Assembly: GCF_009914755.1 (NCBI RefSeq)
Contig: NC_060926.1
Source of the DNA: the human T2T-CHM13v2.0 reference genome, Homo sapiens
Length of the DNA: 64,000 nucleotides
Reading direction: 5' to 3' (one strand)
Shown: piece after piece, positions 13,210-64,000 of the stretch
Layout of the letters: the number at the start of each line of letters is the position of its first letter
Position numbering within the stretch: the stretch's first letter is position 1
The notes under the pieces: generated by a model
The model's database searches: none
Told to the model about the DNA's origin: nothing
What the model saw: only the letters and a program-made list of their open reading frames with translations
Position numbers and translations under genes: made by a program

Positions 13210-39247
<26,038 letters not shown>

Positions 39248-48901: not shown

Positions 48902-49534
48902 AACATGCCCTTTCTTTACATACATCCCTAATGGGGAAAGTAAAATCTGAGACCTAACTGAATTCCATTGATCTGTTCTGTAAATCATTTTACATTTATG
49001 TTAATCTTCCAAAAAGTGTGCTCCCATTTTCCTCACCTCTTATTTTTAAAATGTTGTCATCATATATAACACCAGACTCCTGAGCCACCCTCTGGCTTTT
49101 CTGCTCCTTCCACAGCTACAGCTCATCTTCCATGGACCCTTTCATTTCCTCCTTTGGAAATTAAAGACAGCACATGCTCATTTATCTCACACTCTTTTGT
49201 AAGAATTACAAATTAACTCGTATTAATACTAAGAGTATTAATTATCGCTAATTAGAAATAAGCTGAGAAAGATAAAGTACTATACAAATGTTGGCCGCTG
49301 AATGCCTACAGGGACACAGGAAGTCAAAACAGTATCAGGTCTTTCTATGTCTGCGGCAGAATGCCAAAGCCCTGACACACATCCTTTTAGCAGCTTTAAG
49401 TCACTTCTGCAAGTGAGTACAAGGGGATCATCCCTTACTCCTGATCTTTGCTCTCAGGGGACCACTTCAGCATAAGCCTTCCACCCTCCACAGATAACCT
49501 CAGGTTCTCCTGAAGCCTCTAGATCTTATTTGAC

Positions 49535-50702
49535 ATTTTATTATAGGTGCAACTTCTTGTGGCCTGTTCTTCCATCTTCAAAGCACATTACTCTGACCTC
49601 TGTTTCCATCCTCACATTCCTTTCTCCTCTTTCTGATCCTCCTGCATCCCTCTTATAAGGACGACTGTGACTCCCTCGGGCCCCCAGATCATCCAGGATC
49701 ATCTCCCATCTAAAGGTTCTTAACCATATTTGCAAAGTCCCTTTGCCATGTAAGTAACATATTCACAGGTTTTGGGGAGTAGGATCTGGACATATTTGGG
49801 GGCCATTATTCAGCCCACCACATGTCCTTCTTACACGCCTCCATCCTTTCTTTTCCTTCTGGTGCTACAAGATGTTCCAGCCTTATTTTGTGTATTCCTG
49901 GCTCCAGACCTAGAATTTCTCAGGCGTTTCTCCAGAAATACTGGGGTGTCACTGCTTCTAGGGCTTCTCAGAAGACAGAGTGAAAAAATATAGCTAAACA
50001 GATTAGTGTATTATACATGTGTATACATAGACACGCACACATTCATACTGATACCTCCCACTCTACTCCACAAGGCTCATTCTAACTTCCCCCCTTGCTT
50101 ATTTGTAACTTTTTTCTCTGAGAGTGAGACCCCAACTTTCATTATCTACAACATATCTATCTATTTATTATACTTGTAGTTTCAAAATTACTGAGAAACA
50201 AATTTACTACCTAGAATACTGTGTTAATATACAATTTTCTTTAGTTTTACAGTATCCAGTCAAAAGGCTGTCTTCCAAAATTGCTTAGGTCAGCTACTTC
50301 TCCATGCAACTCTTTCAGTGAGGCTGTATCATGCGTTTGTAATATTGTTAGATTCATTTGTTATAGCCTGCTTTCTCCACAGGACTTCCTAACAGCCTAT
50401 TTCTTTTTTTTTTTTTTTTTTGAGATGGAGTCTTGCTCTGTCACCAGGCTGGAGTGCAATGGCACTATCTTGGCTCACTTGCAACCTCCACCTCCTGGGT
50501 TCAAGTGATTCTCCTGCCTCAGCCTCCAGAGTAGCTGGGACTACAGGCGCCCGCCACCACGCCCAGCTAATTTTTGTATTTTTAGTAGAGATGGGGTTTC
50601 ACCATGCTGGCCAGGCTGGTCTTGAACTCCCGACCTCAGGCGATCCACCTGCCTCCGCCTCCCAAAATGCTGAGTTTACAGGCATGAGCCACCCGCCCGG
50701 CC
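49535..50702 (-). mobile_element. MLT1-type LTR fragment (about 49535-49820), old L1-like sequence and AluS (about 50400-50702)
   Basis: ctcttataaggacgactgtgact...ggggccattattcagccc; Alu consensus. Confidence 0.7.
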
Positions 50703-51614
50703 AGCCTGGTTCATTTTTCAAATTTGCGTGCACTAAAGTCCACTCTTTGTGGTGTACAGATCCATGTGTAGTTGTGTGTTTCTGGGCTTTTTATTCTGTT
50801 CCAGTGGTCAATCTGTCTCTTCATATGACAGTATCATACACTTTCCTAAAAGAGGATCTAGAAGTGTTTTTAATACCTGACAAGCTATTCTCTCTCCACA
50901 GCTTTTTATTCCAGGGTTCTTCTAGTTGTTCTTATGTTTAATTTTTTTCATATGGACTTTGGTATCAACTTTTCAAGCTCCATTTAAAAAAGAAAGCTTG
51001 TGGAATTTTTATAGGATTGCACTAAATTGATGGTGTTGCTAAGATTCAAACATAGGCAGTTTGCTCCAACACCTACATGAAGTTTGGGGCAAAAAAGAAA
51101 AAAGTAACATTTTTGTAGTGGTATTCAGTTTTTATTAATAGAGTTCGGTTTTGTTGTTATAACTAGGCTACTTTGTATTAACCCTGGAATTGAAACTTAT
51201 TATGAAAATAATTTGCATGTAGGTTTACTAATAAAGAATCAGGCTCAAATGCACTAAAAGACAGACATGAAAATTGTGTTTCGACTACTCTGAAAATTCT
51301 TATCCCTATAATAGAAAATAATTCATCTGTGAAATGAAATAATAATCTAGAAACCCTCTGATGGCATGTAGAACTTGTTCTCAGTGGAAAACTCAGTCAA
51401 CTAATTCTCAAATGTTTGCATACTTAAATTATACCCCAAGTCATAAATAACAACCTATTAAATAAATTTGCTTTGTGTCTTTGTGCTTTATTAATTTTTT
51501 TCTCATCTGACTTCTTTCCAAAAGCACTTAAAAAGATTTAAGTCTCTAGTTACACTTTCCTTCTTCTGCAAATTTGTCAGAGTGAAAATTTATTGTGTTC
51601 TTTGAAAGAATTAC

Positions 51615-51820
51615 CTTTTGACAACTTGCACGAAGTCTTCACAAGCTTTCGCCAATTCCTCAGCCATCTTCTCCAACGAGGCAAATACTTCATTCTCCAC
51701 TTCTTTCCTCTCCATTGAGATGAGCAGATGGCAAAGCTGAACGATCATTGGTGAGATGATTCTCTCAATGCCTTTGTTCTGTATCACAGAGCTGATGTCA
51801 TCCAAGAGGAAAGACTCCAT
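51615..51820 (-). CDS. Putative upstream coding exon A (exon 51615-51830), vinculin/alpha-catenin-family N-terminal helices: MESFLLDDISSVIQNKGIERIISP...FVQVVK
   Basis: Acceptor ttctgttcacag| at 51831; ATG in GAGATGG Kozak context; donor AAAAG|gtaatt at 51614; non-repeat sequence; gapless similarity to the recalled vinculin N-terminus. Confidence 0.72.
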
Positions 51821-52129
51821 CTCTCTTAGTCTGTGAACAGAAGTTACAACATAGTTTAACTCACACTGACTGACATGTAAACCTACTTCTCTTTGACTTG
51901 ATGTTCATCTAATTTTACTTCTATGATGAGAAAGAAATCTGCAAAATATCAAAGGGATAAGTTGGGAGAGATATTTTTAGGACCTCACAAGTATGGGATA
52001 GGTTGTGGCTTAGCAGAAACATTAAAAAATGGGACAAAGGCACAATGAGATAGATTCAGAGGTGCAAACAATGGCGAATGGACTCACAAACTATATGAAA
52101 TAGAGGCAGTTTAAGAAATGGTTAATTGA

Positions 52130-56530
<4,401 letters not shown>

Positions 56531-57721
56531 AGCAGATGTCATGAACATACTTCAACAAGTAATTGAACACACTTAAATTTTAAAAATTACAATTCAAGAA
56601 AAAAAAGACATAGAAGGAAAAAATTTGAAATTTTAGAACTGAAAATATAATTAAAATAAATTCATTGAATGGGCTCAATAGCAGAATGGAGATGACAGAG
56701 GAAAGTCAATTAATTTGAACATAGATTATTACAAGTTTCTCAAACTGAACGACAAAAAGAAAATAGCTGAAAAAGAAATGAACAGAGATCCAGGAACTTG
56801 TGGGACAATAAGAAAATAGCTAACATTTTCAAGGGCTAAAATAAAAGAACTGTTCATCCTAATTCTATACCCAGTGAACTATACTTCAGGAATGAAGGGG
56901 AAATAAAAACATTTCTTGTCAAAATATAAACAAAAGTTACCCAGAAGAAACACAAAGCCTGAATGAATTATTAGCTATAGAGAGACTGAAATAATAAAGG
57001 CCTATATTTTAAAAGGTCATAGATCCAGAAGATTTTAATCCCTGAATTCTTTCTGGCCTTTAAAGAAGGAACAATTCTTACAATGCCTAAACAATTTCAG
57101 TACTTGGAAAAAGTGCAAAGCTTCATTGTTTATCTTATAAGGCTAACATTGCTTTAATTTTTAAAACTAGTAAGAAATATCAAAAAATTAGAGTATATAC
57201 CATTTTTATAAAGGGATACAGACACAAAAATTATAATCAAATTATTAGAATATGAAATCCAATGATACGGAAAAAGAATAGTACTCCTTAACTAATCAGG
57301 GTTTGAGGAATGAGAGGGTGCTTCAACATTACAAACTCAACTGACCAGGATTCCTTGGACAAATGGCTGATTCAAGGACTGTAGCAGGAATAGAGAAGGT
57401 AAGCACAGAATCTCTTGAAATGACAGGAAATAAAGAAGTGCTCCCAAACAAAACCAAACCCACTTTGAGGGAGGTTTGTCAAAGGCACACAGGAGCAAGT
57501 GAAAGAACTTCCAGTGGCCAAAGGAGGCATGATTGGAGCAACACCATAAAGTAACACTGGATTCTAATCCAAAGTATGAAATAAGTATCTATGAACAATG
57601 ATTGAGAAAATAAATAAATAGGGGAGACAAACCTCTCATGCAGAAGAATTCTAAATGATTGATGTCGATATTTCACCCTCAAACAGTGGAGAGCATAACT
57701 CTCCAATCCTTAAGTGTGGGC

Positions 57722-58343
57722 TGGAAAGGGATCGGGATCCCGATCCACACCCTAAGAGAGGATTCTTGAATCTTGCACAAGAAAGAATTCAGGATGAATC
57801 TGCAGTGCAAAGCAAAAGCAAGTTTATTAAAGAAAGTAAAGTAGTGAAAGCACAGCTACTCCATAGACAGAGCAGGGCGTTCCTGAAAGCAAAAGGAGGA
57901 ACGCTTCCACCGTAGATACAATGTTGGTATACACACACACACACACACGATAAATACATACATATGTGTATATATGAGATAAATACATACATATGTGTAT
58001 ATATATACACACACATATGTATATATATGATAAAAAAATCTTGGGGAGATGTGCTCTGCTACAGGGGTTTGTGATAAAGCATTAATTTTCCTAATTACTG
58101 TATTTTGCAAGAATCGATATGTTTAAAGCAAAATTAGGAATGCCCTTATTCTCCAGATATCGGGATATCTGGACACTCCCGAGTCTGCATCTGTTTAGTA
58201 AACATTATTAATCTGTTCCCTTAACCATAAACATCTAGGGGCTAGGAATTCCTCACTTTCTGGGAATGCAGCCCAGGAAGCCTCAGACACATTTTCCTAG
58301 CCCTCACTCAAAATGGAGTCACTCCAGTTCAAACACCTCTGAC
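57722..58343 (-). mobile_element. MER41-family ERV1 solo LTR with an internal TA/CA low-complexity tract (about 57930-58030), inserted in old L1 sequence
   Basis: Minus strand starts tgtcagaggtgtttgaactggagtgactccattttg and ends ...gatcgggatcccgatccctttcca, MER41-like termini. Confidence 0.75.
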
Positions 58344-59072
58344 ATAAGGACTTCCTTCCAAAGAGTACAGTAAGGAAAGGGAAAGAAAGAGGGACTTTTC
58401 TGTGGAGAAACGTAATGGACACCGTCTCAGCCAGGTGATCAAGGTCAGCATCAACAGGAATAAATCTCACCAGTATCCCCAAAACTGTCAAGGTCATCAG
58501 AAACAAGAAAAGTCTTAGAAACTGTCACAGCCAAGCGGAGCGTAAGGACAGATGACAACTAAATGTAATGTGATGTCCTGGATGACATCCTCGAACAGAA
58601 AATAATATTAGGCAAAAACTAAGGAGATCTGGATAAAATATTCACACTAGCTAATAATAACAAATCAATATTAGTTGAGTAATTGTTGCAAATACACCAT
58701 ACTCGTGTAAGATGTTGGTTATAGGAGACAATTGAGTACAGGGCATATAGGTGCTCTTTGTACGAATTTCTTAATTTTTCTGTAAGTACAAAACTGTCCA
58801 AAAAGTTAAGACTATTTTTTTAAAAAATTCAACTATCACAATATATTAAATCAACAATTTAAACTAGGATAATACGATTAAATCAATAAATACTAAAAAG
58901 CTTGTTTCTGATCTTTTTTCAAAGTTTCCAAGTAAAATGATTAAATATGATTCGTCATCAAGAGAAAGCTTTATACTAAACAGTAAAACACAGAGCCAAT
59001 TTTATCCATCAGTTTCAAGCTGAAATATCAGCTGCCACCATTATTAAACATATTTTTTCAAAATTCTACTCA

Positions 59073-60948
<1,876 letters not shown>

Positions 60949-61741
60949 TCACTTCTTGTATTGCCTTGGGAGACATCTGGCCATTGGTACTCATTTCTGT
61001 TCTGGGTCGAAGGGACCTCACCTTCTTTTCCACCAGCCATGAGGCAGGAAGGCCTCAACTGGTATCCCTGAAAGGGGGAGAGTTGGACTCTTGCCACAAG
61101 TCAGGTATCTCACCTACTTCTCTCTCCCCTCTTGTGACCTTTTCTCAACTACTGCCCCCTAGTGTGGTTCCAATGGTAAATGACGGATTTGGAAGAGGAA
61201 ATAGACATCCCTTCTCCGGTGGGTTTGGGATTGGAGTCAGAATGGCCACTGTGAGGACACCTGGTGATCCCTGGACCCTCACCAAGACAAGACTCAGAGG
61301 GACACCAAGCAGCAGGGGGAAGTCAAGAGAGAATAAAATGCTAAAGACTTTTTGCTTTAGGAGTTGAAGAGATATATATTTGATATATATTTATTATGTT
61401 TGGAAACCATAAAATGAAATCAATAGGATGAATGAATGGCTTTTATTCTTGTTAAACAAGTATTTATTTGGTACCCACTACATGCTTTGTATAGTTGGCT
61501 CAACCTTCAAACTCTACCCATTATGAAGCCACTGTTTACCATGTCCACTGCCTATCTCTAATCTAGCCACCTTCACCTCTCACCTGGAGCGTGGGAACAC
61601 ACTACATCTATAACAGAAAATTATTGTTTAGAAACAACCCCATTGTTCCGCTATTACAGATAACAGTAGTAAATGTCTTTGCTGTAGATCACCCTTGTTT
61701 CTTTTTTAATTTTAATTTTTTATTTTATATATATATGTGTC

Positions 61742-62372
<631 letters not shown>

Positions 62373-62989
62373 TTGACTCTTGTTTCTTCTTAAAAATTTC
62401 ATTAGAGTAAGTTTGAAACATGAGATTACTTGGTCAAATGATATGAAGCCTTTATGGCTCTTGCTCTGTGTTATCCTCTTGCTTTTTCAAAGGGCCGTGA
62501 GCTAACAGGGAGCAGTTCATGACGAACTTCTACTAAAAGTATCACCATTTTTGTTTTCTTATTTTATAGGTATAAAACGATACATAAAATTCAAATTTAT
62601 TTTATAATTTTTGATACTGTTGTATCAAAAAATCTGAGTCTGATTCCTAAGGGAGATGAAACAGCATGAGTCATGTGTGTAGGGAAAGAGAAGAAGGGAG
62701 CTTTTCCAGGTTGATTTGCAGTTTCTTGTTCAAGAAGCTCACCAGATGGTCGAACAAGTGACAGGAAGAAGATAGTTGAAAAGGGCGTTAACGTTTGGGA
62801 AAGGTGGATCATTGAATTAATGAACTGAATTGAATTCATTTATAAAGAAAGCATGAGATCCAGGTAGAAATCAGCTATAAATCTAAAGCATAGATCAGAA
62901 GATTCTAGCAAACTGAAACCACAGCGAGCTGTCACTACACTTTTATTAAAATGGTTAAAATAAGAAGTGGTGACAACTCACTAAAGAGT

Positions 62990-64000
<1,011 letters not shown>

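What the first reader, a model, noticed from the sequence alone, without database searches (positions are those of the whole stretch)
51615..51830. Orphan exon encoding vinculin head helices 1-2 upstream of the PINCH paralog
Seen: a non-repeat exon with a good acceptor, a Kozak ATG and a gtaatt donor. Residues V12-K68 (VIQNKGIERIISPMIVQLCHLLISMERKEVENEVFASLEKMAEELAKACEDFVQVVK) align without gaps to the recalled human vinculin V3-K59 ([57 protein letters not shown]), with 17/57 identities by hand count and the hydrophobic pattern kept. Positions matching vinculin I12 and A50 are conserved. Established: these residues line the talin-VBS-binding groove of vinculin D1. Inference: this is the first coding exon of a divergent vinculin/alpha-catenin-family gene or its remnant. 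It is too divergent, and carries splice sites, so it is not a recent VCL retrocopy.
Basis: partly seen in the sequence, partly recalled or inferred. Interest (0 to 1): 0.88.

Follow-up and report, generated by a model that had tools for sequence, protein, structure and literature searches.

The report
Leftover first exon of VINAC1
This is the surviving first coding exon of VINAC1, a little-studied vinculin-family gene that is intact in gibbons, monkeys, rodents, birds and reptiles, while this human genome keeps only this exon, copied three times on chromosome 2.

Summary
On the minus strand, 51615-51830 carries an ATG (51820), 68 open codons plus two bases, and an AAG|gtaatt donor. Alone, the peptide matches Pfam Vinculin only weakly (E 0.0037, 16.1 bits, cut-off 38.1). 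A search of 1.84 billion proteins settles it. The peptide is the N-terminus of about 1,440-residue proteins (E down to 1.4e-30). These score 136-288 bits on Pfam Vinculin. Sources name them "Vinac1 / vinculin/alpha-catenin family member 1". The siamang protein is 99% identical over the exon. In the human T2T genome only this exon is found, in three copies 98-100% alike on chromosome 2. Three other parts of the protein find no orthologous exon. About 2 kb downstream of the exon, all three copies run into LIMS1-derived sequence. A human symbol VINAC1P already appears in gene lists. This is a correct call on a known kind of relic. Whether it is still spliced to anything is open.

The parts
51615..51830 (-). 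Exon as proposed: first coding exon of VINAC1 (10 nt of leader after a candidate acceptor, then the coding part)
   Evidence: Sequence. It matches residues 1-68/69 of six orthologues by tblastn, E 3.5e-34 to 2.8e-10.
51617..51820 (-). 68 complete codons (P0001); bases 51616-51615 (AG) are the first two bases of a split codon 69
   Evidence: Residue 69 is R in at least 90% of the 24 aligned orthologue rows, which fits AG plus a purine.
51613..51614 (-). GT of the splice donor (AAG|gtaatt)
   Evidence: All six orthologue alignments end at 51614. Three short gene models end at this point: P0003 and P0004 with ...VAKR, P0213 with ...VAER.
51831..51832 (-). AG of a candidate splice acceptor after a pyrimidine-rich stretch; use unverified
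   Evidence: Models from other species read through this stretch.
49562..51612 (-). About 2.05 kb that would be the start of VINAC1 intron 1; shared with the two other copies, absent from the LIMS1 locus
49145..49561 (.). 417 bp of LIMS1-locus-derived sequence present in all three copies. It marks the junction where the rest of VINAC1 is replaced.
   Evidence: homology to the LIMS1 locus (L053) runs to window 49561 at 96.7%. Homology to the third copy (L049) starts at 49145 at 97.3%.
49145..63050 (.). Stretch in which every piece tested has exactly three genomic copies (this one, C2:110.34-110.35 Mb, C2:112.86-112.92 Mb)
   Evidence: Only the stretches 49145-53753, 56200-59050 and 60950-63050 were tested.

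Best explanation
The segment is the first coding exon of VINAC1 (vinculin/alpha-catenin family member 1). Where the gene is intact, it encodes a protein of about 1,440 residues. That protein has a vinculin-like head, a family-specific middle part of about 600 residues, and a vinculin-like C-terminal tail. Exon 1 supplies residues 1-68, which align with residues 3-59 of vinculin, the first part of its N-terminal domain. That these residues form the first two helices of a four-helix bundle is recalled vinculin structure, not shown here. In this human genome the rest of the gene is gone. About 2 kb into what was intron 1, the sequence switches to a duplicated piece of the LIMS1 locus. This composite was then copied, giving three copies on chromosome 2. 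One copy lies upstream of LIMS4 (this window). One lies in the near-identical copy of this region at C2:110.35 Mb, which I take from memory to be LIMS3. One lies about 7 kb upstream of an RGPD-type gene at C2:112.87 Mb. Here the exon is therefore most likely a non-functional relic. Its intact ATG, frame and donor reflect its youth rather than selection. Shown: its identity as VINAC1 exon 1, the family membership of the orthologues, the three copies, the shared junction, and that no other VINAC1 exon was found. Inferred: that the rearrangement caused the loss, that the loss happened after the split from gibbons, and that the exon now makes no protein.
For: Orthologues:
- One search found 29 proteins at E<=1e-3 and 14 at E<=1e-10. 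The best is P0002 (1438 aa, 94% identity, residues 1-68 on 1-68, E 1.4e-30).
- Names from sources (86 hits, 99 hits): rat 'Vinac1' / 'Vinculin/alpha-catenin family member 1' (P0081), and proteins of Cercocebus, Papio, Chlorocebus, Macaca, Symphalangus, Callithrix, cetaceans, carnivores, pig, rabbit, rodents, wallaby, turtles, alligator, birds and squamates.
- all 33 longer proteins that hold the exon are of this family. The best is siamang, 99% identical.

Family membership of the orthologues:
-, Pfam Vinculin: P0014 E 2.8e-85, P0011 7.8e-80, P0029 4.9e-45, P0002 2.1e-39.
- a profile of 24 orthologues against the PDB gives metavinculin E 4.1e-70 (head 12-367 on 3-372, tail 1253-1397 on 963-1115) and alphaE-catenin E 2.3e-64.
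- the exon-1 block aligns without gaps. Of the 24 rows, 21 cover the whole block, one begins at residue 25, one has a 3-residue gap and one lacks the exon.

Loss of the rest in human:
- The whole mangabey and siamang proteins find only the three exon-1 copies in the T2T genome.
- Three separate parts find no orthologous exon: residues after exon 1 (178 aa), the conserved middle (146 aa) and the tail (189 aa). The tail query did pick up distant paralogues on chromosome 10 (E 0.48 and 2.7), at places the Pfam Vinculin scan also hit. The search can therefore see even weak relatives.
- tblastn of six orthologues on the window gives only exon 1; the next best hit has E 0.35.
- tblastn of eight orthologues on the 60 kb downstream of the third copy gives 0 hits at E<=0.1.

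Junction.

Hint of relaxed constraint: human V67 stands where 23 of 24 rows have A and none has V.

Naming: the human symbol VINAC1P (ENSG00000283698) occurs in two gene lists.
Against: - Alone, the exon is under the Pfam cut-off (16.1 against 38.1 bits).
- The ATG, frame and donor are all intact in all three copies. The exon differs from the siamang protein at only one of 68 residues. This could also mean continued constraint. My rough expectation of about 3 changes on a neutral human branch does not exclude either reading.
- VINAC1P is listed in an appendix gene table of a human expression study, so some copy may be transcribed.
- The donor phase equals that of LIMS4 exon 1, so an in-frame fusion is possible.
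- The two whole-protein genome searches ran with a 'stricter first look' that can miss matches under about 60 bits. About half of the protein (roughly residues 250-480 and 640-1250) was covered only by those.
- Only one human assembly was searched.
- No great-ape genome was examined. The absence of Homo, Pan, Gorilla and Pongo among the 86 and 33 listed proteins is indirect.
Confidence: 0.88

Rival explanations
1. The exon is alive as an alternative first exon. Transcripts start upstream of it and splice from its donor to LIMS4 exon 2 (and likewise in the near-identical copy at C2:110.35 Mb). The product would be a PINCH-type LIM protein with a 68-residue VINAC1 N-terminus, a fusion born by segmental duplication.
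For: The exon lies 12 kb upstream of LIMS4 exon 1, on the same strand. Its coding part (206 nt) and that of LIMS4 exon 1 (182 nt) both end in phase 2. Joining it to LIMS4 exons 2-10 therefore gives an open frame of 406 codons. The ATG context and the donor are intact. LIMS1-derived sequence begins only 2 kb downstream, in the same orientation.
Against: The RefSeq table supplied with the finding shows no LIMS4 transcript reaching beyond 39544. None of the 33 longer proteins holding the exon is a LIM fusion. A matching phase has a one-in-three chance. Two helices cut out of a four-helix bundle are unlikely to fold on their own; this rests on recalled vinculin structure. No transcript data could be consulted.
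Confidence: 0.05
2. The exon belongs to an intact or nearly intact human VINAC1 whose other exons my searches missed. They could be too diverged, withheld, or missing from this assembly but present in other people.
For: The whole-protein searches used a stricter first look. 2q13 is recalled as a region rich in copy-number variants. The exon itself is undamaged.
Against: The siamang protein is 96-97% identical to the human copies over residues 1-70. Other surviving exons should therefore score far above 60 bits. Three part-queries run with the normal first look found nothing orthologous. In all three copies the intron is cut by foreign sequence 2 kb downstream. At the third copy, a chr21-like piece and an RGPD-type gene follow. 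The name VINAC1P marks the locus as a pseudogene.
Confidence: 0.03
3. A chance open frame with a weak vinculin-like pattern, or a decayed retrocopy of VCL.
For: Pfam E 0.0037 is below the cut-off and PDB E is 0.15. Among some 1,900 peptides of this size in a 64-kb six-frame reading, several such Pfam scores are expected by chance. That figure is my estimate, not a call.
Against: Orthologues reach E 1.4e-30 and carry the peptide at their N-terminus. It shares only 15 of 54 residues with VCL exon 1. The similarity stops at a GT donor.
Confidence: 0.01

Closest known systems
VINAC1 / Vinac1 (vinculin/alpha-catenin family member 1) of other amniotes, e.g. rat P0081, siamang P0034, turtle P0014
   Same: The human peptide is residues 1-68 of these proteins. 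Identity is 99% to siamang, 94% to mangabey and 57-60% to wallaby and turtle. It has the same start, and the similarity ends at the same point, which here is a GT donor.
   Different: Those genes encode about 1,370-1,480 residues with head and tail. Human keeps exon 1 only. Human has V67 where 23 of 24 aligned rows have A.
VINAC1P, the human pseudogene symbol (ENSG00000283698)
   Same: By its name it is the human remnant of the same gene. It occurs in two human gene lists (I saw only the passages holding the term).
   Different: I could not learn which of the three copies carries the symbol, or what exons its model has. The RefSeq table supplied for this window lists no such gene.
Vinculin (VCL), N-terminal domain D1
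   Same: Residues 12-66 align without gaps to vinculin 3-57. The family profile aligns 12-367 to vinculin 3-372. The positions of vinculin I12 and A50 are identical. Their role in talin binding is recalled, not tested.
   Different: Only 15 of 54 residues are identical. VCL exon 1 ends in phase 0 after R56. This exon ends 11 nt later in the alignment, in phase 2, so the intron positions are near but not the same. VINAC1 proteins are about 370 residues longer than vinculin, with a middle part that matched no solved structure.
Alpha-catenins (CTNNA1-3) and alpha-catulin
   Same: Same Pfam family. AlphaE-catenin is the second-best solved relative of the VINAC1 profile (E 2.3e-64, positions 9-559 on 16-561).
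   Different: Vinculin scores better, and the tail match to vinculin is stronger. Some databases label VINAC1 proteins 'Catenin alpha-1/2' or 'CTNA1 protein, partial'. Given identities this low, I take these for automatic names.

Membership tests
Vinculin/alpha-catenin family (Pfam PF01044) | Score over the Pfam gathering cut-off (38.1 bits) | tested here: not met
   The human 68-aa peptide alone scores 16.1 bits, E 0.0037, residues 13-66 on profile 2-55 of 852. Its full-length orthologues score 136-288 bits. The gene belongs to the family, but the human fragment cannot show this by itself.
Vinculin/alpha-catenin family (Pfam PF01044) | Vinculin-like N-terminal head domain, collinear from the first residues | tested here: met
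   For the orthologues: profile 12-367 on vinculin 3-372, and P0034 12-192 on vinculin 3-183, E 1.1e-8. The human exon covers only the part aligned with vinculin 3-59.
Vinculin/alpha-catenin family (Pfam PF01044) | C-terminal vinculin-type tail. Actin binding by this tail is recalled. | tested here: not met
   Present in the orthologues (P0034 1260-1384 on vinculin 983-1116). Not found in the human genome with the siamang tail, which hit only chromosome-10 places at E 0.48 and 2.7 that the Pfam Vinculin scan also hit.
VINAC1 orthologous group | Closest relatives are VINAC1 N-termini, far closer than any paralogue | tested here: met
   E 1.4e-30 at 94% identity to P0002 and 99% to siamang, against E 0.15 to vinculin.
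VINAC1 orthologous group | Complete open reading frame of about 1,400 residues | tested here: not met
   Only exon 1 was found in the T2T genome, in the window and in the 60 kb beside the third copy.
VINAC1 orthologous group | Conserved chromosomal neighbourhood | tested here: inconclusive
   A paper's table places mouse Vinac1 at chr2:129,038,002-129,039,048. That this lies between Zc3h6 and Ttl, and that the human third copy lies in the matching interval, is recalled. This window's copy sits in a duplicated block beside LIMS4, so it is not at the original place.
Processed retrocopy of VCL | High identity to the VCL mRNA, continuing across exon borders, with no introns | tested here: not met
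   15 of 54 identities to VCL exon 1. The similarity to family members stops at a GT donor.

The most novel reading that the evidence does not exclude
The exon is not dead. Because the duplication placed VINAC1's start and first exon 2 kb upstream of LIMS1-derived sequence, in the same orientation and the same splice phase, the LIMS4 locus and its near-identical copy could make an ape-specific fusion protein. That protein would be a PINCH-type LIM adaptor carrying the first 68 residues of a vinculin-family head. The loss of an amniote-wide adhesion gene would then have seeded a new isoform of another adhesion gene.
Probability: 0.05. Interest if true: 0.55.

Novelty: already known. Interest (0 to 1): 0.3.

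Why it matters
For the scan, this is a reading from raw sequence that proved right: a 68-residue peptide with 28% identity to vinculin really is the start of a vinculin-family gene.

Biologically the exon is a relic. It does point to two things that seem barely described.

First, amniotes have a further vinculin/alpha-catenin family member, VINAC1, with a head, a tail and a long middle part of its own. My searches for 'Vinac1', 'VINAC1P' and the full name found only gene lists. [quoted passage not shown]

Second, this gene appears to be missing from the human genome, cut off inside intron 1 by the 2q13 segmental duplications. The siamang still has a full-length model. A lineage-specific loss of a cell-adhesion or cytoskeleton gene is worth a short note. 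It also matters when mouse Vinac1 results are carried over to human.

Tried and rejected
- I translated from the wrong first base and got stops. Corrected.
- the Pfam Vinculin scan of the whole genome listed 55 exon matches but not this exon. It is too weak for that scan, which ran with a stricter first look. I used the scan only to find VCL exon 1.
- I asked whether VCL and this exon share their intron position. They do not exactly: phase 0 after R56 against phase 2 eleven bases later. That gives no support either way.
Smaller fetches gave 60 kb plus 3 kb.
- the human genome cannot be searched with an alignment. I did not pursue that.
- a structure prediction of an orthologue's N-terminal 486 residues (alignment A1) had not finished after repeated polling. 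No model and no fold search were obtained, so 'helices 1-2' rests on sequence alignment to solved vinculin chains.
- 'Gm14025', a recalled possible old mouse name, gave only unrelated hits. I dropped it.
- a search for phylogenetic work on the family gave 2 unrelated papers.
- there is no G+C-rich stretch upstream of the exon (GC 0.32-0.46), so no promoter was identified.
- dN/dS could not be computed, because no nucleotide sequences of other primates were within reach.

Full report
**What is in the sequence**

The feature is on the minus strand. Read that way, a pyrimidine-rich stretch ends in cag at 51833-51831. Ten bases follow, then ATG at 51820-51818 with G at -3 and G at +4. After that come 68 open codons and two further bases (AG), and then gtaatt from 51614. 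The coding part is 206 nt, so the donor is in phase 2. The stop-to-stop frame is 97 aa. My first translation started one base off and is void.

**Is the vinculin resemblance real?**

On its own it is weak.
- Pfam gives one family at E<=10: Vinculin, E 0.0037, 16.1 bits against a cut-off of 38.1. Residues 13-66 lie on profile positions 2-55 of 852.
- Against solved structures, the 15 best rows are vinculin head chains at E 0.15-0.24. The alignment is ungapped, residues 12-66 on vinculin 3-57.
- Against VCL exon 1 taken from this genome, 15 of 54 residues are identical.

For a peptide picked from a 64-kb six-frame reading, such scores alone would not be convincing.

**What settles it**

A search of 1.84 billion representative proteins found 29 at E<=1e-3 and 14 at E<=1e-10.
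- The best, P0002, is 1438 aa and matches residues 1-68 with its own residues 1-68 at 94% identity (E 1.4e-30).
- Others of 1475, 1438 and 1366 aa match in the same way.
- These proteins are strong Pfam Vinculin members: P0014 at 287.8 bits, P0011 at 269.8, P0029 at 154.7 and P0002 at 136.
- The larger protein database gives names (86 hits, 99 hits). They are mostly 'uncharacterized protein LOC...'. In rat and some other rodents the name is 'Vinac1' or 'Vinculin/alpha-catenin family member 1'.
- The species span Old World monkeys, siamang, marmoset, squirrel monkey, cetaceans, carnivores, pig, horse, rabbit, many rodents, bats, elephant, a wallaby, turtles, alligator, many birds, lizards and snakes.
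- A lamprey protein is a distant hit at 27% identity.
- All 33 longer proteins that contain the exon belong to this family. The best is siamang, at 99% identity.

In an alignment of 24 orthologues the exon-1 block has no gaps. Of the 24 rows, 21 cover the whole block, one begins at residue 25, one has a 3-residue gap and one lacks the exon. Residue 69 (R), which would complete the split codon, is nearly invariant.

A profile of that alignment hits metavinculin at E 4.1e-70. Positions 12-367 lie on vinculin 3-372, and the tail positions 1253-1397 lie on 963-1115. AlphaE-catenin scores E 2.3e-64.

All six orthologue alignments to the window end at 51614, the donor. Three short gene models end at exactly this point: P0003 and P0004 with ...VAKR, and P0213 with ...VAER.

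**Where is the rest of the gene?**

I did not find it in this human genome.
- The exon occurs three times: C2:110347821-110348024 (+), the window's copy, and C2:112867005-112867208 (-). Protein identity is 100%, 100% and 99%.
- The 1.45 kb around it occurs in the same three places at 100, 99 and 98%.
- It is not in the LIMS1 locus.
- The whole mangabey protein and the whole siamang protein find only these three places. Both searches ran with a stricter first look that may miss matches under about 60 bits.
- Three parts searched with the normal first look found no orthologous exon: the conserved middle (146 aa, no candidates), the tail (189 aa) and the stretch right after exon 1 (178 aa).
- The tail query did reach places on chromosome 10 at E 0.48 and 2.7. 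The Pfam Vinculin scan also hit those places. The method therefore sees even remote paralogues.
- In the window, six orthologues match only exon 1; the next hit has E 0.35.
- In the 60 kb downstream of the third copy, eight orthologues give 0 hits at E<=0.1.

**Why it is cut off**

- Left of about 49561 the window matches the place C2:109.06 Mb at 96-96.7%. By position I take this for the LIMS1 locus; that is recalled and rests on the LIMS4 annotation. It also matches the second copy at C2:110.35 Mb at 99%.
- The third copy shares the window's sequence from 49145 rightwards.
- The 417 bp at 49145-49561 are therefore LIMS1-derived and yet present in all three copies.
- It follows that the junction between VINAC1 intron 1 and LIMS1-derived sequence arose once, before the three copies separated.
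- At the third copy, the sequence left of that stretch is a 4-kb piece whose only other copy is on chromosome 21 (97-99%).
- Next to it come the first exon of an RGPD-type gene, a 779-aa RANBP2-like frame and a GCC2-like frame, all on the same strand.
- Rightwards, the stretches I tested also have three copies (56200-59050; 60950-63050). At the third locus the two stretches lie 46 kb further apart than in the window.
- The divergences are about 3.3-4% to the LIMS1 locus, 2-2.7% to the third copy and 0-1% to the second copy. They suggest this order of events: the junction first, then the split from the third copy, then a recent duplication of the LIMS-bearing block. This dating is a rough inference, and gene conversion could distort it.

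**When was the gene lost?**

- The siamang has a 1446-aa model with head and tail.
- No Homo, Pan, Gorilla or Pongo protein is among the 86 or the 33 listed relatives.
- This fits a loss in the great-ape stem, but I could not look at great-ape DNA.
- A table in PMC8560743 (I saw only the passage) places mouse Vinac1 at chr2:129,038,002-129,039,048. From memory this lies between Zc3h6 and Ttl, and human RGPD8 lies in the matching interval. If so, the third copy would be the original site. This part is recalled, not tested.

**Is the exon still used?**

Nothing here shows use.
- Its intactness is not informative. The three copies differ at 2 and 3 of 381 bases around the exon, and so little change rarely breaks a 68-codon frame.
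- Human V67 stands where 23 of 24 rows have A and none has V. That is one hint of relaxed constraint.
- On the other side, the exon differs from the siamang protein at one residue only.
- Its donor phase equals that of LIMS4 exon 1, so a splice to LIMS4 exon 2 would be in frame, giving 406 codons with no stop.
- The symbol VINAC1P is listed in an appendix gene table of a human expression study (PMC12388004; passage only).
- The supplied RefSeq table shows no transcript through the exon, and no LIM fusion is among the proteins holding it.
- I put the fusion reading at about 5%.

**Literature**

- 'Vinac1' as a word start occurs in 5 papers.
- 'VINAC1P' occurs in 2 of them, and the full name in none.
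- In the five papers I read only the passages holding the term. Four are gene lists or tables. [quoted passage not shown]
- A search for phylogenetic work on the family found 2 unrelated papers.
- Supplements were not consulted. Subscription journals are outside the library.

**Verdict**

The object is the remnant first exon of VINAC1, a known but unstudied vinculin-family gene. Its human remnant already has a pseudogene symbol. This copy is one of three and is not listed in the RefSeq table for the window. It is ordinary as a kind of object, a gene fragment stranded by segmental duplication. It has modest side interest as a marker of a lineage-specific loss of a conserved adhesion-family gene.

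The structure prediction I started never finished. The assignment to 'helices 1-2' therefore rests on sequence alignment to solved vinculin heads.

Noticed in passing
window 49145-49561 (junction near 49561): This is a junction of two duplicated blocks. Sequence from the place I take for the LIMS1 locus (96.7% to C2:109.055-109.057 Mb) meets the block that carries the VINAC1 exon. The 417 bp next to the junction occur at four loci.
   Followed up: yes
L049 5500-9519 = C2:112860500-112864519: Beside the third copy of the exon lies a 4-kb piece whose only other copy is on chromosome 21 (C21:41812301-41816548, 97-99%). It sits wedged between the exon block and the first exon of an RGPD-type gene.
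   Followed up: partly
window 59050-60950 against C2:112874684-112922513: The stretches on either side are collinear with the third locus, but there they lie about 46 kb further apart. Either the window's copy has a deletion or the third locus has an insertion.
   Followed up: no
proteins P0002, P0032, P0034: VINAC1 changes fast in catarrhine primates. Siamang and mangabey are 90% identical outside exon 1. Two Old World monkey models are only 89% identical to each other. The mangabey model lacks part of the conserved tail stretch that siamang, marmoset and rat have. The cause could be decay, selection or faulty gene models.
   Followed up: no
window 39066-39247 and the other LIMS4 coding parts: The LIMS4 coding exons of the supplied table join into an open frame of 398 codons.
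   Followed up: partly
window 52125-52247: A dispersed repeat is found at many places in the genome, at 80-91% identity to query positions 1325-1447. It lies about 300 bases upstream of the exon.
   Followed up: no
G000:C5:115903221-115905633: A continuous, intron-less match to almost the whole Pfam Vinculin profile, with several stops inside. It looks like a processed pseudogene of a family member and is unrelated to this window.
   Followed up: no
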